Positions 20,952 through 41,528 of a DNA stretch of 64,000 nucleotides are shown here, one piece after another. Each line of letters opens with the position of its first letter. Position 1 is the first letter of the stretch. Source of the stretch: Candidatus Sericytochromatia bacterium (lineage in GTDB: Bacteria; Cyanobacteriota; Sericytochromatia; UBA7694); the NCBI GenBank assembly GCA_964229355.1, contig CAXRDE010000019.1:389557-453556 (forward strand), written 5' to 3'. The notes under the pieces are model-generated. The model worked only from the letters and a program-made list of their open reading frames with translations. It had not been told where the DNA came from and ran no database searches. A program made the translations under genes and the position numbers.

Positions 20952-21024
20952 GCCGATGTAGCTCAACTGGTAGAGCAACGGTTTTGTAAACCGTAGGTCG
21001 TAGGTTCGAGTCCTATCATCGGCA
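20952..21024 (+). tRNA. tRNA-Thr (anticodon TGT)
   Basis: Acceptor GCCGATG/CATCGGC, anticodon stem ACGGT/ACCGT, loop TTTGTAA. Confidence 0.85.
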
Positions 21025-21036
21025 CTGCCCAATCAT

Positions 21037-21119
21037 GGGAGAATGGCCGAGTGGTTAAAGGCGGCAGACTGTAAATCTGCTCACGTTCGTGTACGCTGGT
21101 TCGAATCCAGCTTCTCCCA
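21037..21119 (+). tRNA. tRNA-Tyr (anticodon GTA)
   Basis: GGGAGAATGGCCGAGTGG…, anticodon loop CTGTAAA, long variable arm, 83 nt. Confidence 0.85.
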
Positions 21120-21124
21120 TACTT

Positions 21125-21196
<72 letters not shown>

Positions 21197-21262
21197 CTTT
21201 TTTATATCTATAAAATAGTAGCAGTACACGTACACACGACAATAAAGGAACTAAACAATAAC

Positions 21263-33877: not shown

Positions 33878-34791
33878 TGTCTGTGTCATTACCCCCTGCG
33901 GTCACTCTGGTGGAGGTGGGACCGCGAGATGGTTTGCAAAATGAAAGTCAGGTGTTGCCAACGCAGGACAAAATTAAAATGATTGATCAGCTCTCTGAGA
34001 GCGGTCTAAAGTACATTGAAATTGGTTCTTTTGTCAGACCCGACCGTATTCCTCCTTTGGCAGATACCGACGTGGTTGCTGCGGGCATTCAGCGCAAACC
34101 AGGAGTGACTTATGCTGCTCTGGTTCCCAATATTAAAGGCTTAGAGCGGGCTGTAGCGGCTCAACTGGATGAGATTGCTATTTTTATGTCCGCCACCAAT
34201 GCCCACAATTTAAAAAACACCAACCGCACCACTGCTGAGGCCCTGGCGATGTACCCTGAGCTCGTGCAAGCAGCGCGTGAACAGGGCTTGAAAGTAAGGG
34301 CTTATTTGTCCACGGTATTTGGCTGTCCTTATGAAGGGGATGTGGCGGTAGAAACGGTGGCACCGTTGGTTCATGCCTTGCTCGACATGGGGGTGTATCA
34401 GGTGTCATTGGGAGATACCATTGGCGTCACCAATCCTGTGGCGGTACAGCATGTGCTGTCTCACTTATTGACGGACTTACAACCCGAACAATTGGCCCTG
34501 CATTTTCACGATACCCGTGGAACGGCGTTGGCCAATATTCTTGCGGGTTTGCAAATGGGCATTACCACCTTTGATGCCTCTGTGGGCGGATTGGGCGGTT
34601 GCCCATATGCCCCCGGTGCCGCAGGCAATATGTCGACGGAAGACCTGGTGTACATGTTGCAGGGGATGGGGGTTGAAACCGGTGTGAGCCTGGATCGCCT
34701 GGTGAGTGTGAACCATTATCTGGCGGAGCGTTTTAACCGGCAATTGATGAGTAAATATGCCCTGACCCGGCCGGGTGCAGAGATTAAGTAA
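33877..34791 (+). CDS. Hydroxymethylglutaryl-CoA lyase
   Basis: VEVGPRDGLQNE N-terminal motif. DRE-TIM-type barrel signatures. Confidence 0.85.
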   Translation: MSVSLPPAVTLVEVGPRDGLQNESQVLPTQDKIKMIDQLSESGLKYIEIGSFVRPDRIPPLADTDVVAAGIQRKPGVTYAALVPNIKGLERAVAAQLDEIAIFMSATNAHNLKNTNRTTAEALAMYPELVQAAREQGLKVRAYLSTVFGCPYEGDVAVETVAPLVHALLDMGVYQVSLGDTIGVTNPVAVQHVLSHLLTDLQPEQLALHFHDTRGTALANILAGLQMGITTFDASVGGLGGCPYAPGAAGNMSTEDLVYMLQGMGVETGVSLDRLVSVNHYLAERFNRQLMSKYALTRPGAEIK

Positions 34792-34871
34792 CACATTTTT
34801 GTTGCAAAAATGTTGATTTATAGAGATATGTTGTGTTTATATAAAGAAACTACACCATAAGGATCCGCATC

Positions 34872-35066
34872 ATGTCTCAACTGCTTTTGCCCCGCTTATC
34901 TGAAGAGCGCTTCGCGGCACTGCAAGCCCAATGTCATCTGTCTGCCGAGGCCATTGATCATCTGGTGGCTGAGCTGCATGAGGCAGAAGCTGTCCATTCA
35001 CCCCTCACGTCAGAGACCCCCGCTGCGCAAGATCTACGAGCTACGCAAGAGGATGCCAGCCTGTAA
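34872..35066 (+). CDS. Small acidic helical ORF (64 aa, single Cys), unknown
   Basis: AAGGA-like RBS 9 nt upstream. Convergent with a 33-nt overlap on the DUF2063-like gene. Confidence 0.3.
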   Translation: MSQLLLPRLSEERFAALQAQCHLSAEAIDHLVAELHEAEAVHSPLTSETPAAQDLRATQEDASL

Positions 35067-35798
35067 AAATGCTTGTGCTGCACGAATGAGCGTTTCTGCA
35101 TCTCGTTGTGCATCGCTCTCAGGGTGTTTTTGAAGCACCTCAGCCACAAGGGTCTCCCAGGATTTTTCTCCCAGACATTGCAACAGGCACTCCGCCAGCA
35201 AAGGGCTGATTTTTTCAAGTCTCACGCCTTTAAACTCCTGGAGGAGTAAATAGGGGGTACTCGGATATAAAGGCCATTGTAAAAGGTCTTTCGCTTGCGT
35301 ATGGGGCTGCTGTAAAGCTGACCACACCAAAGGAAAATAAGGTCCCAGATAAACAACTCTGGCCCAGCTGGCCAATTGAGGACCCGCGCAGGCAGGAAAT
35401 ACCTGCGGTAATTGATAAAAACTCAGTGACTTGATGTGGGCTTCATAACGACACAGTTCTGCAAAGTGCAGGGTGCCTGCTTCAGAATAATCCGCCAAAA
35501 AACGCAATAATCTTACCTGTACTTGCTGTGTACTCTCATGGGCGCAGTGCTTATACACATCAAAAAAATCTAACAAAGCGGTATTCAACCGATCGGGCCG
35601 TGCGAGCTTTTTGACGCTGGGCGACAACTGTTGGTAGAAGTACACCAGGGTCTGTTCTTGCATCGATTGACGCATGGGTTGAGCCTCATGCCAGTTTTGC
35701 AAATGGCCCTTTTCGTGTTCAGAGAGAGAACTTGACAGCGTAGACGGATTTGAAAATAGGGCATTGAGCCAGCTGTTTTGGTACTGTTTTAAGCTCAT
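35034..35798 (-). CDS. DUF2063-like protein (MbnC/BufC/TglI-type MNIO partner)
   Basis: 254 aa. N-terminus LKQYQNSWLNALFSNPS, an internal motif TLVYFYQQL (vYrnn-like), C-terminus AFLQAGILL, as remembered for DUF2063. Start abuts the stop of the upstream MNIO-fusion gene. Confidence 0.5.
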   Translation of the reverse strand: MSLKQYQNSWLNALFSNPSTLSSSLSEHEKGHLQNWHEAQPMRQSMQEQTLVYFYQQLSPSVKKLARPDRLNTALLDFFDVYKHCAHESTQQVQVRLLRFLADYSEAGTLHFAELCRYEAHIKSLSFYQLPQVFPACAGPQLASWARVVYLGPYFPLVWSALQQPHTQAKDLLQWPLYPSTPYLLLQEFKGVRLEKISPLLAECLLQCLGEKSWETLVAEVLQKHPESDAQRDAETLIRAAQAFLQAGILLRSS

Positions 35799-37180
35799 CA
35801 GGTGACCTGCTTTATAAACTGTTGGTGTAGGGGCTCGAGTATTTTCAGATCTGCTTCTGAGTGGGGACCTGGTGTGTAACTCAGCATTTGTAGGGGAAAG
35901 CGCTGCAAGATCGTCTGGGCTAACTGGGCAATACGGGGGGTGTGGAGGCGGGTCGGCTTTTCGATATGCAAGGCAACCACATGGGCGGTGGGGAGTTTAT
36001 CGAGATACGCTTCGGGTGTCATGTAAAAGGCGCTGGCATTGACCAGCAAGGTGTCTAAAGACAGAGACAACAGGCATTGGGCTTCTTCGGCAATATGTTT
36101 TAGAAAGGTGGCTTCGTCCATTTCATAGCTTTTGGGTGGCACACGATAGGCCACCGGCTCTAAAATAGGAATCACGCCCAGGTTCTGACGGAGTGTTTTG
36201 AGTTGGCTTTTCACGTGCTCGAGGGCTTCTTCACCGGGTAAGAGGGCATGTAAAAATGGACTCCCATTGTTTTCGGTATAGCGAAAACCCAGTCCCATTT
36301 TAAGCCAATTGGTATTTAAGCGCTGGATAAGACGGTGCAAATGAGAGCGAATATTTTCAGGGGGCGGTGTGGTACTGGCCAGAGATAACTGTTGACTGTA
36401 CATGCCCAAAGGTTTTTTTTGGGATAGGTGCAGCAGAAGACTGTCAAAGCTCAGGGGTTCAAGGTGGGCAGCAGGCAGCTCCAAATAGTCCACCTGGGGG
36501 ATATTAACAATCGTTTGCGGATCCTGGCTCGTGTGGTGCCTCACGGCAAAACCGGCCGGAGTCAGGGGTTGAAAAGGAGATTGCGAGTGGATTTGAAAGG
36601 GTTTTTGCAGAATGCGCTGCTCTACCTGATGCGGCGCCTGGGGATCCAGATTACGCACCTGGGCTTTGCCCTGAAAAGCCCAGAGGGTTTGCCAATCCGC
36701 AAAGCGCTTTGTGAACTCTTCTGGGCTAAAAACCCCCGTGGGGCGTGGCGAGATTTGGTTGCTGGTGCGGGCTAATTTTTCGTGGGCCCAGACGTCTTCG
36801 GGTGAAAGACCTGAAACAATGAAAAAACCACCGGGTTTAAGGGCTGACTTTAAGCGGCCGATAATGCGGGCCCGTTCCCCATTGGGAATAAAGGGAAAGA
36901 CGTTGAGACCCAAAATGAGTCCGTAGGTGTCCCGCTGCATGCGAAACCCGCGAATATCCTGGTGTAACCAGGTAATGTTGGGATGGGGATAGCGCTGCTG
37001 TGCCTCGGTGACACATTGTTGATCCACGTCTAAGGCCGTGACATGAAAGCCGTACTCGGCCAAATGATGGGTTAACTCGCCCCTGCCAAAGCCAATGTCG
37101 CACACATGGAGATGAGGAATCCAGGGCAATAAACGCAAGAGGTCACTCAGGTGCAGTTGTCGGCTCGAGAAGACGCTCAT
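35798..37180 (-). CDS. Fusion of class-I SAM-dependent methyltransferase (N-terminal) with a DUF692 / MNIO-like TIM-barrel domain (C-terminal)
   Basis: MTase motif I VCDIGFGRGELTHHLAEYG with acidic post-I HVTALDVD. C-terminal ~250 aa carry DUF692-like blocks (QVDYLELPAAH, LGMYSQQLSLAS, LLPGEEALEHV…LGVIPILEPVAYR, CLLSLSLDTLLVNASAF, HVVALHIEKP). Several expected metal ligands appear substituted. Confidence 0.6.
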   Translation of the reverse strand: MSVFSSRQLHLSDLLRLLPWIPHLHVCDIGFGRGELTHHLAEYGFHVTALDVDQQCVTEAQQRYPHPNITWLHQDIRGFRMQRDTYGLILGLNVFPFIPNGERARIIGRLKSALKPGGFFIVSGLSPEDVWAHEKLARTSNQISPRPTGVFSPEEFTKRFADWQTLWAFQGKAQVRNLDPQAPHQVEQRILQKPFQIHSQSPFQPLTPAGFAVRHHTSQDPQTIVNIPQVDYLELPAAHLEPLSFDSLLLHLSQKKPLGMYSQQLSLASTTPPPENIRSHLHRLIQRLNTNWLKMGLGFRYTENNGSPFLHALLPGEEALEHVKSQLKTLRQNLGVIPILEPVAYRVPPKSYEMDEATFLKHIAEEAQCLLSLSLDTLLVNASAFYMTPEAYLDKLPTAHVVALHIEKPTRLHTPRIAQLAQTILQRFPLQMLSYTPGPHSEADLKILEPLHQQFIKQVT

Positions 37181-37215
37181 GGACGGTTCCTCATGGGAAA
37201 AAAGTCACAAAAAAA

Positions 37216-37287
37216 AGGCGATGGCCGGAATCGAACCGGCGAATAAAGCTTTTGCAGAGCTCGGCCTTACCACTTGGCTACATCGCC
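37216..37287 (-). tRNA. tRNA-Cys (anticodon GCA)
   Basis: Acceptor GGCGATG/CATCGCC with discriminator U73. Anticodon stem GAGCT/AGCTT, loop CTGCAAA. T-arm GGTTCGATTCC. No encoded CCA. Confidence 0.85.
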
Positions 37288-37354
37288 CTATCATCGCGTT
37301 ACGCCTGAGGGCGCGTTGCAATAGGATATGCAATTTAACATACTGTAAAGCCCT

Positions 37355-38299
37355 TTAGCAATGGTTTCGTAGAAAGCACTCAATAATTTCAAACACCTGA
37401 TCTGGCGGTAAAAAGCTGCGGGAGCCGTTGGGGCGACGCGGTGCGCCACCAATGCTGCTGCCCCCACCCCAACCCGGTTCAATATCGTTGAGATGCTCTA
37501 AAATGGCTGGAATATTAAAGTCTTTGATGAGGTCTGACTGTTTAGCAATGGTGTAAGAAAAAGAACGCTCCACATTGCCATCAGGCCCTGTGACTTCAAT
37601 TTCATGAAAAGAAACCACTTTGGCGTAACCGTCGCGGTATAAAGAGCCGAAGACCCGCTCAGGGCTATGGGTCATGACCCAACCTGAGCCCTCATGGGTG
37701 ATTTCATAGCGGCACCCGCGGTTGCGGGCATACTGTGGAATCGTATAGCGCTTATTGTGAAAGATGAGCTTATCGGTACGTTTGAGACACGCAAAGAGCA
37801 ATTGATAAAGATCCGCTGTGGCATAGGCATTTTCGCGGCGACACCGGCATTCAGGCTCCATGGCCCCTTTAAAAAAGCGCTGGCACAACTCTGAGTCACG
37901 CACGTAGGCAAAGTAAGAGGGGCCGTGAGCGTCTACGTTGGCCACATCCTCCACCAGATTGCGTACCCGCGGGTTATTGATGGCCGACGGATGGCGCAAG
38001 AGCCAGGTGGCGAGCACCGTGTCGGCGTCGATATCGTTTAAATAAACGGTCATATTTCCGGGATCGAGTCCCAGGATCAAGGCGTCCAAGACTTGTGCAC
38101 ACGTTGCTTTTGTCACCAGGCGAATACAGCCCGCATGGTGGTCAAAGCTGTATTTATGCGCTTTGACGTCGATGGCGGGTCCCTGGACATAGCCATCTAA
38201 AGCAATTGATCGAGGAGGCAGCTCCTCAAAGGGCACAATCTTGCCGCGTTTAATGATTATTTTCATGGCAAAGCCCGATGTTTTCTCAGATCTTAGCAT
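37355..38299 (-). CDS. Hypothetical Cys-rich protein (314 aa) ending in a C-terminal Cys
   Basis: No confident family. Contains FDHHAGC and NDIDADTV motifs (order not that of the DHH family). CRCRREN cluster. Gly-rich GWGGGSSIGG. Alternative start at 38266 (MKIIIKRGK). Confidence 0.5.
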   Translation of the reverse strand: MLRSEKTSGFAMKIIIKRGKIVPFEELPPRSIALDGYVQGPAIDVKAHKYSFDHHAGCIRLVTKATCAQVLDALILGLDPGNMTVYLNDIDADTVLATWLLRHPSAINNPRVRNLVEDVANVDAHGPSYFAYVRDSELCQRFFKGAMEPECRCRRENAYATADLYQLLFACLKRTDKLIFHNKRYTIPQYARNRGCRYEITHEGSGWVMTHSPERVFGSLYRDGYAKVVSFHEIEVTGPDGNVERSFSYTIAKQSDLIKDFNIPAILEHLNDIEPGWGGGSSIGGAPRRPNGSRSFLPPDQVFEIIECFLRNHC

Positions 38300-38421
38300 A
38301 AGATGGAAGCTTTTTGCGATTGTTCTCTGGTTACAGACCCAGAATCTTCAGAGATGTTAGACTGAACAGCAATATTTTAACATTGTGTGACGGAGAGTTA
38401 AATTTGAATATTATAGATGTG

Positions 38422-40104
38422 ATGGGCAACATTACTGCCTTCTTATGGGGCCCCTGGACCTTTTTTGTCTTGATGGGCTCGGGTATTTTATTCACCATTT
38501 GGAGTAAATTCGTTCAATTCCGGGCAGTGACCCATGGTATTGAAGTGGTACGCGGGGTGTATGATGATCCCGATGACCCTGGTGCGATCAACCATTTTCA
38601 GGCCCTTTCGGCTGCCCTTTCAGGGACCGTGGGCCTCGGCAATATTGGCGGTGTGGCGATGGCCATCGCCCTCGGTGGACCAGGTTCGCTCTTTTGGATG
38701 TGGGTGGTCGGCTTTTTAGGGATGGCCATTAAAACCGTTGAAGTGACATTGGCTTTGATGTACCGCAATATGGACGATCCCGACAACCCTCACGGGGGAG
38801 CCATGTGGGTTATCGATAAAACCCTGGGCAAATACAACGACTGGCGCAAGGGCCTGGCCCGCGTGCTGGCCGTCTTTTTCTGCTGTACCTTGCTTATTTC
38901 CAGCATGACGGGCGGCAATATGTTTCAGTCCTGGAACGTGGGCGAAATTTTGAATGTGTACTTTGGAGTGCCTCAAATTGCCACCGGAATTGTGCTTGCC
39001 ATTGTGGTGGGCATGGTGATTGTGGGCGGTATTAAGCGCATTGGCGATGTGGCAGGCAAAGTTGTGCCTCTGATGTGTGCCCTTTATGTCTTAGCGGGCT
39101 TAGCGGTATTGGCTGTCAATATTCAGGCCATTCCCTCGATGTTGGCCTTGATTGTTTCGAGCGCCTTTACCCCTGTGGCTGCAGGCGGTGCCTTTGTGGG
39201 GGTGACCATGTATGCCACCTTTGAAATTGGCTTACAGCGTGCGCTGTTTTCCAATGAAGCGGGTCAGGGTTCTGCGCCCATTGCTCACGCGGCGGCGAAA
39301 AGTCATGAAGCCACCCGTGAAGGGGTTGTGGCTGGTTTAGAGCCTCTGATTGATACCATTCTCATTTGTACCCTAACTGCACTGGTGATTTTGTGTACGG
39401 GTACCTGGAATCGCGATGCCATTGGTCAATTAAGTGGTCCTGCAGTGATGGCGCAAAATGCAGAAGGCAAAACAGTTTTGCAAGCCCCCAATCAGGTGTC
39501 AGACTTGCCGGAATTGGCCTCCTGGGAAAAATGGCAGCCCGGTTCTCAAATCTTTATGATGGTTGATGTGCCTGCTGAGGACGGCACCGTTAAGCGAGGC
39601 AAAATCTACGGCACCATCGTCGCGGGAGCCACCGCTGGCAAAGATATGGTGGAGTGGGGAGAGGTTCCCGAAGGTGCTCAGTGGGTGATGGTGGATGGTA
39701 AGCCGGACCAGAGCATTTACCGTAATTTTGTGGGAGCCAGTCTGACGGGCCATGCTTTTGACCGGGCCTTTCCGGGCCTGGGTAAATGGCTGATTACCGT
39801 CGCTGCCGTGCTTTTTGCGGTTTCCACGATGATCTCCTGGAGCTATTATGGTGAACAGGGCGTTATCTTTATCTTTGGAGGTAAAGGCATCCTCATTTAT
39901 AAGGCCATTTTCTTGTTGGGAACCCTGGCCGCGCCAGTGCTGATTACCACCGATAAAGAACTGGGCATTTTGGCGGATTTTGGTACGGGCTGGATGCTCT
40001 GGGCCAATATCCCCATTTTGCTGATTATGGGGCACCTTGCCATTCGTGAGATGAGTGGCTATTTTGCCAAACTGGATCGTGGCGAGTTCACCCGTCAGAA
40101 GTAA
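38422..40104 (+). CDS. Alanine/glycine:cation symporter (AGCS) family transporter
   Basis: ALSGTVGLGNIGGVAMAIALGGPGSLFWMW. The ORF opens at 38314; ATG at 38422 gives the typical N-terminus. Confidence 0.8.
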   Translation: MGNITAFLWGPWTFFVLMGSGILFTIWSKFVQFRAVTHGIEVVRGVYDDPDDPGAINHFQALSAALSGTVGLGNIGGVAMAIALGGPGSLFWMWVVGFLGMAIKTVEVTLALMYRNMDDPDNPHGGAMWVIDKTLGKYNDWRKGLARVLAVFFCCTLLISSMTGGNMFQSWNVGEILNVYFGVPQIATGIVLAIVVGMVIVGGIKRIGDVAGKVVPLMCALYVLAGLAVLAVNIQAIPSMLALIVSSAFTPVAAGGAFVGVTMYATFEIGLQRALFSNEAGQGSAPIAHAAAKSHEATREGVVAGLEPLIDTILICTLTALVILCTGTWNRDAIGQLSGPAVMAQNAEGKTVLQAPNQVSDLPELASWEKWQPGSQIFMMVDVPAEDGTVKRGKIYGTIVAGATAGKDMVEWGEVPEGAQWVMVDGKPDQSIYRNFVGASLTGHAFDRAFPGLGKWLITVAAVLFAVSTMISWSYYGEQGVIFIFGGKGILIYKAIFLLGTLAAPVLITTDKELGILADFGTGWMLWANIPILLIMGHLAIREMSGYFAKLDRGEFTRQK

Positions 40105-40736: not shown

Positions 40737-41078
40737 CTAACCTTGTGTATGTTTGACAGCGGGCTGAGAAAAGCTGTTCTCTAGCGTTTCTCGCATGATT
40801 TCGATTTGCACGCGGCATAGCAAGTCAATTAAGTCTTCGAGCTCTCGTTCGTTAAAAATCAAAGAGATATCGGCAAATTTGAATTGCACTTCGCTCTGCT
40901 TTTCGCCCACAATTTTGCGTTGTTGTAGATCTTCTAAGAAAACCACAAAACTTTTAAGTTGGGTACTTTTAAAAGGCAGTAAAGCGCAGGCGCAGCGCAG
41001 TTTGATATGTTCACAGTCCTTACACCAACAGGCGCTGTAGAAGCGGCTTTCGAAATGGACACAGCGACAGTCAGACAT
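40737..41078 (-). CDS. Small Cys-rich protein (CxC…CxCxxC…CxC), hypothetical, upstream of flavodoxin
   Basis: AAGGAG RBS 10 nt before the ATG at 41078. N-terminal MSDCRCVHFESRFYSACWCKDCEHIKLRCAC. Stop lies 9 nt before the flavodoxin start. Confidence 0.5.
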   Translation of the reverse strand: MSDCRCVHFESRFYSACWCKDCEHIKLRCACALLPFKSTQLKSFVVFLEDLQQRKIVGEKQSEVQFKFADISLIFNERELEDLIDLLCRVQIEIMRETLENSFSQPAVKHTQG

Positions 41079-41099
41079 TGCCCAGGGCTCCTTTAATAA

Positions 41100-41528
41100 A
41101 AAGATTTGATCATTCGATTTAGACACATCTTAAAAATGTTTCTGTAGTTTGTCAACGTAAAATGCTTTAATTACGTTGGTTAGTTATTTTCCGTTTTGTA
41201 TTGAAAAACAATTTATAAAAGTTTAAATAGGTCTATAATCTTGTTTTTGGAATAAATAAAAATGAGAGGCAAAAAAAATATTTTTTTAAATGTTTTTTTA
41301 TTGAAAATCTTTGATCTTAAAAAAAAAAGCGTGTATTATATTTTCTCATTAAAAAATTAGCTGATATAAGAAGGTTATGGAGGTTTTTTACGTTGGTTTA
41401 TAAATTTATTTGGAAAATGGAATTAATTTATGAACGTAAATGTTGTTTTTCTCGCGAAATATTCATTGACAAGACTTCCCTGCATTGTTTAGGATTAAAT
41501 TAATCAAATCCTATAAGAAGGTTAAATT
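41100..41528. promoter_or_regulatory. ~430-bp AT-rich divergent control region between the Cys-rich/flavodoxin operon and feoABC
   Basis: Very low GC compared with flanks. Two copies of inverted-repeat arms TTACGTT / AACGTAA (about 41150-41180 and 41388-41440). TTGACA hexamer at 41466-41471 upstream of feoA. Confidence 0.5.

What the first reader, a model, noticed from the sequence alone, without database searches (positions are those of the whole stretch)
35034..37287. Methyltransferase-MNIO(DUF692-like) fusion with DUF2063 partner immediately 3' of tRNA-Cys: candidate new RiPP or Cys-modifying maturation system
The 460-aa gene encodes a class-I SAM methyltransferase (VCDIGFGRG, acidic β2 end). 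It is fused to a ~250-aa domain whose conserved blocks match what I recall of DUF692 / multinuclear non-heme iron oxidases (MbnB/TglH/BufB type): VDYLELPAAH ~ VDFLEVHxEN, LLPGEEALEHV…LGVIPILEP ~ LLPLPLTEEAL…LGRPLLLEN, CLLSLSLDTLLVNASAF ~ CGLLLDVNNVYVSA. Several positions that are His/Glu/Asp metal ligands in canonical MNIOs are substituted here (His to Pro in the first block, SEH absent, HVAGH to HIEKP), so the domain may be catalytically divergent or a pseudo-MNIO scaffold. The next gene looks DUF2063-like (vYrnn-like motif, C-terminal LQAGILL), which is the obligate partner of MNIOs in methanobactin, TglHI, bufferin and aminopyruvatide pathways. To my knowledge, a methyltransferase fused in cis to the MNIO has not been described. 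No canonical precursor gene lies directly upstream: tRNA-Cys and an odd Cys-rich protein sit there instead.
Basis: partly seen in the sequence, partly recalled or inferred. Interest (0 to 1): 0.85.

Follow-up and report, generated by a model that had tools for sequence, protein, structure and literature searches.

The report
Methyltransferase fused to degenerate MNIO domain
A rare two-gene module of non-photosynthetic cyanobacterial relatives (Sericytochromatia) fuses a well-conserved methyltransferase to a peptide-modifying iron-enzyme barrel that has lost almost all of its iron-binding residues, keeps that enzyme's peptide-recruiting partner, and always sits directly after the tRNA-Cys gene; its substrate is unknown.

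Summary

The MNIO domain keeps only 2 of the 9 iron ligands that all canonical MNIOs compared retain, and the site-3 Asp/His loop is deleted. Canonical MNIO oxidation is very unlikely. The methyltransferase half is much better conserved (48-78% identity versus 27-51%).

The family is tiny: 16 relatives among 5.8 billion proteins, named hosts all Sericytochromatia. tRNA-Cys lies immediately upstream in 14 of 14 such loci, although the outer flanks differ. Two deep-branching fusions keep 9/9 ligands and lack the tRNA. One of them (Myxococcales) has a Cys-repeat precursor gene upstream.

Best reading: a methyltransferase that uses a dead MNIO barrel and its RRE partner to recruit a peptide or protein substrate. 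The substrate is unidentified; the best candidate is a small acidic protein encoded convergently downstream. This is a new variant of a known kind.

The parts
37215..37288 (-). tRNA-Cys (GCA). It lies immediately upstream of the fusion gene on the same strand and is followed by a run of T.
   Evidence: ARAGORN; Rfam RF00005, 66 bits. A tRNA-Cys sits in the same position in 14 of 14 loci of the degenerate-ligand clade.
37181..37214 (-). 34-nt spacer. It has a T-rich tract and a GAGGAA Shine-Dalgarno sequence 6 nt before the ATG, and no -10-like element.
   Evidence: Sequence read and spacer comparison. In most other loci a -10-like element sits at about that distance before the ATG.
36596..37180 (-). 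N-terminal class-I SAM methyltransferase domain of the fusion (residues 1 to about 195). Motif I is VCDIGFGRG, D51 ends beta2, and D75 is present. The clade-specific invariant block IPNGERARIIGRLK is also here.
   Evidence: Pfam Methyltransf_25/11/12/23 above their cut-offs. Foldseek matches to TehB, Slr1183 and other small methyltransferases. 56 of 195 positions are invariant in 17 homologues.
35801..36568 (-). C-terminal MNIO/DUF692-type TIM-barrel domain (residues about 205-460). Its multi-iron site is degenerate: Y261, G296, E341, S374, T377, H405, deleted loop, T436.
   Evidence: PF05114, E 2.7e-20. AF2 model pLDDT 86.5, with Foldseek top hits 3BWW (TMt 0.79) and TglH. Ligand map.
35034..35798 (-). 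254-aa partner protein: an N-terminal helical domain plus a C-terminal RRE-type winged helix (PME-type 2 MNIO partner). Its start overlaps the fusion's stop codon.
34872..35066 (+). 64-aa small acidic helical protein, convergent with the partner gene and overlapping its 3' end by 33 nt. It is a candidate substrate or accessory protein.
   Evidence: Homologues occupy the same convergent position in 9 of 13 loci examined, across both clades. It is a called gene in the NCBI record. No Pfam match.

Best explanation
The module encodes a two-protein methylating complex descended from an MNIO/partner RiPP maturase.

Shown:
- The 460-aa protein is a SAM methyltransferase fused to an MNIO barrel.
- The next gene encodes a TglI/NGO1945-type partner with an RRE peptide-binding domain.
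- The barrel has lost 7 of 9 iron ligands.

Inferred:
- The barrel no longer oxidises anything. It survives as a structural adaptor that docks the partner.
- The partner's RRE domain captures a leader-like segment of a peptide or small protein.
- The strongly conserved methyltransferase domain is the only catalytic centre and methylates that substrate. Its substrate loop has been remodelled and fixed in this clade (IPNGERARIIGRLK, with many invariant Arg).
- The substrate is not identified. The best genomic candidate is the small acidic protein encoded convergently downstream.
- The module was fixed next to tRNA-Cys in the Sericytochromatia ancestor. In this window it is probably transcribed by read-through from the tRNA, because the spacer has a Shine-Dalgarno sequence and no promoter-like element.
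For: - Architecture: Pfam and structure results.
- Partner: fold match to TglI and NGO1945, with RRE-type matches.
- Ligands: the window protein keeps 2 of 9. The nine canonical standalone MNIOs compared, TglH, and two fully liganded fusions all keep 9 of 9.
- Site-3 residues are individually essential in HvfB.
- Which ligands survive differs from member to member (1-5 of 9). That pattern is expected when constraint on the site has been relaxed.
- The methyltransferase half is 48-78% identical to homologues against 27-51% for the MNIO half, with 56 invariant positions against 20.
- The partner gene is always present, with stop/start overlap, so the barrel-partner relationship is still under selection.
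- The Myxococcales relative with an intact site has a Cys-repeat precursor gene upstream. This points to an ancestral peptide-maturase function.
- The small acidic ORF is linked to the module in 9 of 13 loci.
Against: - No substrate is demonstrated. The small ORF is absent from 4 of 13 loci, is convergent rather than co-transcribed, and diverges at its C-terminus in this window.
- E341 and H405 are conserved within the window's subclade, so a single metal ion could still bind.
- Some distal members (P0012, P0015) keep the three site-1 ligands.
- There is no test of SAM binding or of complex formation.
- This model does not explain the conserved tRNA-Cys adjacency.
Confidence: 0.5

Rival explanations
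1. It is a bifunctional RiPP maturase. The MNIO domain is still an oxidase that modifies Cys (or another residue) with an unconventional metal site, and the methyltransferase then methylates the product.
For: - PF05114 membership and the MNIO fold.
- The partner is retained.
- Fully liganded methyltransferase-MNIO fusions exist, one with a Cys-repeat precursor. ChrH also links SAM and MNIO chemistry (PMC10214503, title and abstract).
- E341 and H405 are retained.
Against: - Only 2 of 9 ligands remain. The Asp/His site-3 loop is deleted in all 17 members.
- Single site-3 mutations inactivate HvfB.
- The ligand columns vary freely among members.
- No Cys-containing precursor was found in any of the Sericytochromatia loci or in the 64-kb window.
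Confidence: 0.1
2. The module is functionally tied to tRNA-Cys. The methyltransferase, with its many invariant Arg and Lys, would act on tRNA-Cys or on Cys-tRNA(Cys), or the complex would use Cys-tRNA as a donor in the way PEARL/TglHI pathways do.
For: - tRNA-Cys lies directly upstream in 14 of 14 loci, despite at least 9 different upstream and at least 7 different downstream contexts.
- In L008 and L011 the tRNA has its own hairpin terminator and the fusion its own -10 element, so shared transcription alone does not explain the linkage there.
- The closest structural relative of the pair is TglHI, which belongs to a Cys-tRNA-dependent pathway (PMC9016710 abstract).
Against: - No PEARL/LanB-like gene or other tRNA-handling gene is in any locus (Pfam lists).
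- The partner's best fold matches are peptide-binding RRE proteins.
- The methyltransferase's closest structures are small-molecule or unassigned methyltransferases, not tRNA methyltransferases.
- tRNA 3' ends are common integration sites, so the adjacency may simply be historical.
Confidence: 0.08
3. It is a small-molecule methyltransferase. The dead barrel and the partner would serve only as a stabilising or regulatory appendage, with no peptide substrate.
For: - The nearest methyltransferase structures and HMMs are TehB, BchM, UbiG, CpaM, Tam and Slr1183-like.
- There is no obligatory precursor gene.
- The genomic context is housekeeping, with no protease or exporter.
Against: - An intact RRE-type domain is retained in every partner, with family-invariant residues.
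- The gene pair is strictly retained. Both facts argue for continued peptide or protein recognition.
Confidence: 0.15

Closest known systems
TglHI (Pseudomonas syringae 3-thiaglutamate pathway; PDB 8HCI/8HI7)
   Same: - An MNIO TIM barrel followed by a partner with a helical N-domain and a C-terminal RRE domain.
- The partner lacks the Pfam DUF2063 signature, which makes it PME-type 2 (PMC12452194).
   Different: - There is an N-terminal methyltransferase fusion.
- 7 of the 9 TglH iron ligands are missing.
- No TglA-like scaffold peptide and no PEARL (TglB) is present.
- The context is housekeeping, not a biosynthetic gene cluster.
HvfBC / BufBC (oxazolin and bufferin maturases; 3BWW homologue)
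   Same: These are the best sequence and fold matches of the barrel: 3BWW E 1.2e-24 with the family profile and TMt 0.79. NCBIfam BufB and HvfB are the top MNIO hits.
   Different: - Scores are far below the equivalog cut-offs (65 against 310 bits).
- The partner is not PF09836.
- There is no signal-peptide Cys precursor and no DoxX gene.
- The metal site is lost.
ChrHI (SAM-dependent DUF692; PMC10214503)
   Same: It couples an MNIO with SAM-dependent methylation of a peptide.
   Different: - Nothing in what I read of PMC10214503 (title and abstract) mentions a separate methyltransferase domain; that ChrH is a stand-alone MNIO rests on my own knowledge and was not checked.
- Here a discrete class-I methyltransferase domain is fused and the MNIO site is degenerate.
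Fully liganded methyltransferase-MNIO fusions (P0054 = HVE83041.1, Myxococcales MAG, annotated 'DUF692 family protein'; P0051)
   Same: They have the same domain order and a homologous partner gene directly downstream, with invariant H111, Y118 and E119.
   Different: - All 9 ligands are kept.
- There is no tRNA-Cys upstream.
- P0054/P0198 has a 170-aa Cys-repeat precursor gene 35 nt upstream.
- The methyltransferase loop lacks the PNGERAR block.
MNIO|nitroreductase fusions (adjamnio-III clusters; PMC12452194)
   Same: This is the only MNIO enzyme-domain fusion I found described in the MNIO landscape paper.
   Different: The fused domain and its order differ, and no loss of ligands is reported.
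Catalytically dead E1-like 'C protein' of azoline cyclodehydratases (my own knowledge, not tested here)
   Same: It is a precedent for a degenerate enzyme fold kept as a substrate-recruiting scaffold for a neighbouring catalytic domain in RiPP biosynthesis.
   Different: The fold is unrelated. This is an analogy only.

Membership tests
MNIO / DUF692 (PF05114) | Match to the family HMM above the gathering score | tested here: met
   73.2 bits against a cut-off of 25, E 2.7e-20, residues 224-406.
MNIO / DUF692 (PF05114) | Xylose-isomerase-like TIM-barrel fold resembling 3BWW, TglH and MbnB | tested here: met
   AF2 pLDDT 86.5. Foldseek: 3BWW E 1.9e-13 with TMt 0.79; TglH TMt 0.73; MbnB TMt 0.66.
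MNIO / DUF692 (PF05114) | Nine conserved iron ligands (TglH H71, H107, E151, D184, N187, H216, D229, H231, E258) | tested here: not met
   The window protein has Y261, G296, E341, S374, T377, H405, gap, gap, T436, which is 2 of 9. Canonical MNIOs and TglH keep 9 of 9.
MNIO / DUF692 (PF05114) | Partner protein encoded directly after the MNIO gene | tested here: met
   The 254-aa gene overlaps the fusion's stop codon, and a homologue is present in every locus.
MNIO / DUF692 (PF05114) | Iron binding and O2-dependent peptide oxidation | not testable with these tools
   This needs metal analysis and activity assays.
DUF2063 partner (PF09836; PME-type 1) | Match to PF09836 | tested here: not met
   None of 13 family members hits it at E <= 1. 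The control DUF2063 regions all hit.
PME-type 2 MNIO partner (PMC12452194) | Structural similarity to NGO1945 (3DEE) and TglI without the Pfam DUF2063 signature, encoded after an MNIO gene, about 260 aa with an RRE-type domain | tested here: met
Class-I SAM-dependent methyltransferase | HMM match, Rossmann-like fold, GxGxG motif I, acidic residue at the end of beta2, motif-III Asp | tested here: met
   Methyltransf_25 at 56.2 bits against a cut-off of 27. Foldseek TehB TMt 0.74. DIGFGRG, D51 and D75 are invariant or conservatively substituted in 17 sequences.
Class-I SAM-dependent methyltransferase | SAM binding and methyl transfer | not testable with these tools
   This needs biochemistry.
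RiPP biosynthetic gene cluster | Precursor peptide gene in the cluster | tested here: inconclusive
   No Cys-type precursor was found. A conserved small acidic ORF is linked in 9 of 13 loci, but its role is unknown.
RiPP biosynthetic gene cluster | Leader protease and/or exporter nearby | tested here: not met
   The neighbours are housekeeping genes: HMGL-like, Wza/Wzz-like, Na/Ala symporter, FeoAB.
PEARL/pearlin-type Cys-tRNA-dependent pathway | LanB-like peptide aminoacyl-tRNA ligase and a scaffold peptide next to the MNIO pair | tested here: not met
   No such Pfam family is in any of the annotated loci.

The most novel reading that the evidence does not exclude
The invariant placement directly after tRNA-Cys is functional. 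The iron-less MNIO barrel, its winged-helix partner and the arginine-rich methyltransferase would form a machine that acts on tRNA-Cys or Cys-tRNA(Cys), or on a cysteinyl product derived from it. That would be a tRNA-linked pathway of a kind not described for MNIO-type proteins.
Probability: 0.07. Interest if true: 0.9.

Novelty: new variant of a known kind. Interest (0 to 1): 0.6.

Why it matters
MNIOs are an actively studied family of RiPP maturases, and every characterised member uses a di- or tri-iron site. This module offers three things I did not find described.

- **A discrete SAM methyltransferase fused to an MNIO.** It exists both in fully liganded forms, which are probably true bifunctional maturases, and in degenerate forms.
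- **A natural series from 9/9 to 2/9 ligands.** The barrel and its partner are nevertheless retained. That makes it testable whether the MNIO barrel-partner pair has a scaffold role separable from catalysis.
- **A lineage-wide module welded to tRNA-Cys.** It sits in a little-studied sister group of the photosynthetic cyanobacteria.

If the substrate is found, it would define a new peptide or protein methylation system. If the tRNA link proves functional, it would be more surprising still.

Tried and rejected
- **Extra conserved components upstream.** I compared the 314-aa protein of the window clade, the DUF4336 or 234-aa genes of L003/L008/L010 and the metallo-beta-lactamase gene of L016. They are unrelated to each other, so none belongs to the core.
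- **A Myxococcales-type Cys-repeat precursor in the Sericytochromatia loci or the whole window.** BLAST and a motif scan found nothing.
- **ORFs running through the tRNA gene.** They cluster across loci, but the conservation of the tRNA sequence itself explains that, so I dismissed them as coding candidates.
- **The small acidic ORF.** It has no Pfam family. An HMM of it found no copy in L003, L007, L010 or L011.
- **The 314-aa protein.** It has no Pfam, NCBIfam or PDB sequence match.
- **Sequence search of the partner against PDB.** It returned only noise.
- **The afdb50 fold library.** It was unavailable.
- **The metagenome scan.** It added only one locus.
- **Other RNAs.** Rfam found no riboswitch or other RNA in 34500-38500 besides the tRNA.
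- **Promoter and terminator consensus scan of the region.** The counts were no higher than in shuffled sequence.
Full report
**What is there.** All relevant genes are on the minus strand.
- tRNA-Cys(GCA) lies at 37215-37288 (Rfam tRNA, 66 bits).
- A 34-nt T-rich spacer follows. It has a GAGGAA Shine-Dalgarno sequence.
- Next is a 460-aa ORF at 35798-37180, then a 254-aa ORF at 35034-35798 whose ATG overlaps the stop codon of the first.
- A 64-aa ORF (34872-35066, plus strand) converges on the 254-aa gene and overlaps its 3' end.
- The wider neighbourhood is housekeeping: HMGL-like, Wza/Wzz-like and a Na/Ala symporter. In the syntenic locus L001, FeoAB, CdaA and RecR are also present.

**The fusion protein.**
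- Pfam places class-I methyltransferase models on residues about 14-140 (Methyltransf_25, E 5.6e-15). It places PF05114 MbnB_TglH_ChrH on residues 224-406 (E 2.7e-20, 73 bits against a gathering score of 25).
- NCBIfam gives BufB, HvfB and ApyH hits at 45-65 bits, far below their equivalog cut-offs of 310-400.
- An AlphaFold2 model built on 17 homologues has pLDDT 86.5 and pTM 0.83.
- Its best PDB matches are the DUF692 protein 3BWW (TM 0.79 on the target) and TglH (0.73). Small SAM methyltransferases such as TehB follow (0.74).

**The metal site.** TglH binds its irons through H71, H107, E151, D184, H216 and E258 (sites 1 and 2) and D184, N187, D229 and H231 (site 3) (PMC10880893).
- I aligned TglH, 3BWW, nine standalone MNIOs found and the 17 fusions.
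- Every standalone MNIO keeps all nine positions.
- The window protein has Y261, G296, E341, S374, T377, H405, a deletion covering D229/H231, and T436. That is two of nine.
- The deletion is shared by all 17 fusions.
- The other ligand columns differ from member to member: H, Y or R at the first; H, G, A, K, Y, T or P at the second; D, N, S, Q or H at the fourth. Between 1 and 5 ligands are kept. This is the pattern expected when constraint on the site has been lost.
- In HvfB, replacing any one of the three site-3 residues abolishes activity (bioRxiv 10.64898/2026.07.17.739211).
- I conclude that canonical MNIO oxidation is very unlikely for this protein.

**The methyltransferase half is the constrained half.**
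- Against the other 15 homologues more than 3% divergent, it is 48-93% identical, and 48-78% for the more distant ones. The barrel is 27-84% identical, and 27-51% for the more distant ones.
- 56 of 195 methyltransferase positions are invariant, against 20 of 216 in the barrel.
- Motif I (DIGFGRG), the acidic end of beta2 (D51) and D75 are intact.
- An invariant, arginine-rich block after beta4 (IPNGERARIIGRLK, with R77, R80 and R83 nearby) is specific to this clade. The fully liganded relatives lack it. This suggests a fixed, distinct substrate pocket.

**The partner.**
- The 254-aa protein and its 20 homologues have no Pfam match, PF09836 included. A PDB sequence search gives nothing.
- I compared the family profile with bona fide DUF2063 regions, all eight of which hit PF09836. 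The alignment is collinear over 210 columns, with hhalign probability 60.6% and E 8.3e-5.
- This is what the MNIO landscape paper calls a PME-type 2 partner: NGO1945/TglI-like without the Pfam signature, and associated with precursors that lack a signal peptide (PMC12452194).

**Distribution.**
- Among 5.8 billion clustered proteins, only 16 full-length relatives appeared.
- An exhaustive HMMER pass over 1.84 billion representatives found about eight 50%-identity clusters of full-length fusions.
- All six genome hits are Candidatus Sericytochromatia or unclassified Cyanobacteria MAGs.
- Two deep-branching fusions are different. P0051 and P0054 keep 9 of 9 ligands. P0054 is HVE83041.1, a Myxococcales MAG protein annotated only as 'DUF692 family protein'.
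- Both are followed by a homologous partner.
- Upstream of the P0054-type gene, separated by 35 nt, is a 170-aa gene with four Cys in L(H/N)(Q/L)CS(V/A)R motifs. Three of them lie in PGLNLCSARLPDP repeats. This is a plausible Cys-type precursor.
- The architecture therefore probably began as a true bifunctional maturase and degenerated in the Sericytochromatia line. That is my inference.

**The tRNA-Cys linkage.**
- A tRNA-Cys(GCA) gene lies directly upstream, on the same strand and 23-103 nt from the start codon. This holds in all 14 loci of the degenerate clade that have enough upstream sequence: the window, L001, L003, L004, L007-L012, L014, L015, L018 and L019.
- The gene upstream of the tRNA differs in at least nine ways, and the genes beyond the partner in at least seven.
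- The fully liganded fusions have no tRNA nearby.
- Here is a rough estimate of my own. Suppose breakpoints fall in proportion to spacer length (about 40 nt against about 90 nt upstream of the tRNA). Then eight or more upstream breakpoints predict about 3-4 between the tRNA and the fusion, and none is seen. This is suggestive but not proof.
- In most loci an extended -10-like element, TG(C/T)TA(A/G)A(A/C)T, ends 6-7 nt before the ATG. That implies a leaderless transcript from its own promoter. L008 and L011 also have a hairpin after the tRNA.
- The window and L001 instead have a Shine-Dalgarno sequence and no -10, so read-through from the tRNA is likely here.
- I cannot tell whether the linkage is functional, regulatory or a relic of integration at a tRNA 3' end.

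**Candidate substrate.**
- All-against-all comparison of small ORFs across loci found one further linked element besides the tRNA, the fusion and the partner. It is a 64-121-aa acidic, helical protein encoded convergently just beyond the partner.
- It is present in 9 of 13 loci from both clades, with the core motif ...E(V/I)..L...LHE.KM.EQL.DLL..LP..SQ.LL..L.E.
- It is a called gene in the NCBI record of this organism and has no Pfam family.
- It has no conserved Cys.
- It is the best genomic candidate for a substrate or accessory protein, but it is missing from four loci.

**Literature.**
- I found no paper combining MNIO/DUF692 with a fused methyltransferase domain.
- The MNIO landscape paper never uses the word methyltransferase, and reports only an MNIO|nitroreductase fusion.
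- I found nothing on Sericytochromatia and tRNA-Cys.
- The library does not hold most subscription-journal papers, so absence is not proof.

**Verdict.** It is wrong, or at least unsupported, about Cys-modifying oxidation, PF09836 membership and the upstream 314-aa protein.
- Most likely (about 0.5), this is a methyltransferase that uses a dead MNIO barrel and its RRE partner to recruit a peptide or protein substrate.
- It is a new variant of a known kind, of moderate to high interest to RiPP enzymologists.
- There is a small chance that the tRNA-Cys link hides something more unusual.

Noticed in passing
L003, L004, L007-L012, L014, L015, L018, L019: last 15-18 nt before the fusion's ATG (window 37181-37214 lacks it): An extended -10-like element, TG(C/T)TA(A/G)A(A/C)T, ends 6-7 nt before the start codon in most loci. 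This implies leaderless mRNAs. The window and L001 have a Shine-Dalgarno sequence instead. Similar TGCTAnATT elements precede the tRNA-Cys genes.
   Followed up: partly
L020 5454-5966 (+); L017 6-353 (+): A 170-aa protein is encoded 35 nt upstream of the fully liganded Myxococcales methyltransferase-MNIO fusion. It has four Cys in L(H/N)(Q/L)CS(V/A)R motifs, three of them in PGLNLCSARLPDP repeats. It is a likely new MNIO precursor type.
   Followed up: partly
window 37355-38299 (-): This 314-aa Cys-containing protein lies just upstream of tRNA-Cys. It has no Pfam, NCBIfam or PDB sequence match and is conserved only in the window's subclade (L001, L004). It contains FDHH and DIDADT strings that recall DHH phosphoesterases, but that is from memory and was not tested.
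   Followed up: partly
window 40737-41126 (-): This 129-aa protein has eight Cys within about 30 N-terminal residues (CRCVHFESRFYSACWCKDCEHIKLRCAC). It is conserved in L001 and L004 only, and its function is unknown.
   Followed up: no
window 20952-21197 (+): A tRNA-Thr, tRNA-Tyr, tRNA-Thr cluster. Its arrangement recalls the tRNA-tufB operons of other bacteria, but the downstream gene was not examined.
   Followed up: no
L003, L006, L012, L013, L014 downstream of the module: In the distal clade the module is repeatedly followed by an NAD-dependent epimerase/dehydratase gene (also seen in L015) and then by tRNA-Leu(GAG). tRNA-Phe(GAA) follows the tRNA-Leu in L003, L006 and L012. This is a second tRNA-bounded edge of the region.
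   Followed up: no
L016 2890-3750 (+): In the low-GC contig carrying the fully liganded fusion P0051, a metallo-beta-lactamase-fold gene ends 3 nt before the fusion, and an HD-domain gene precedes that. They may be additional tailoring enzymes.
   Followed up: no
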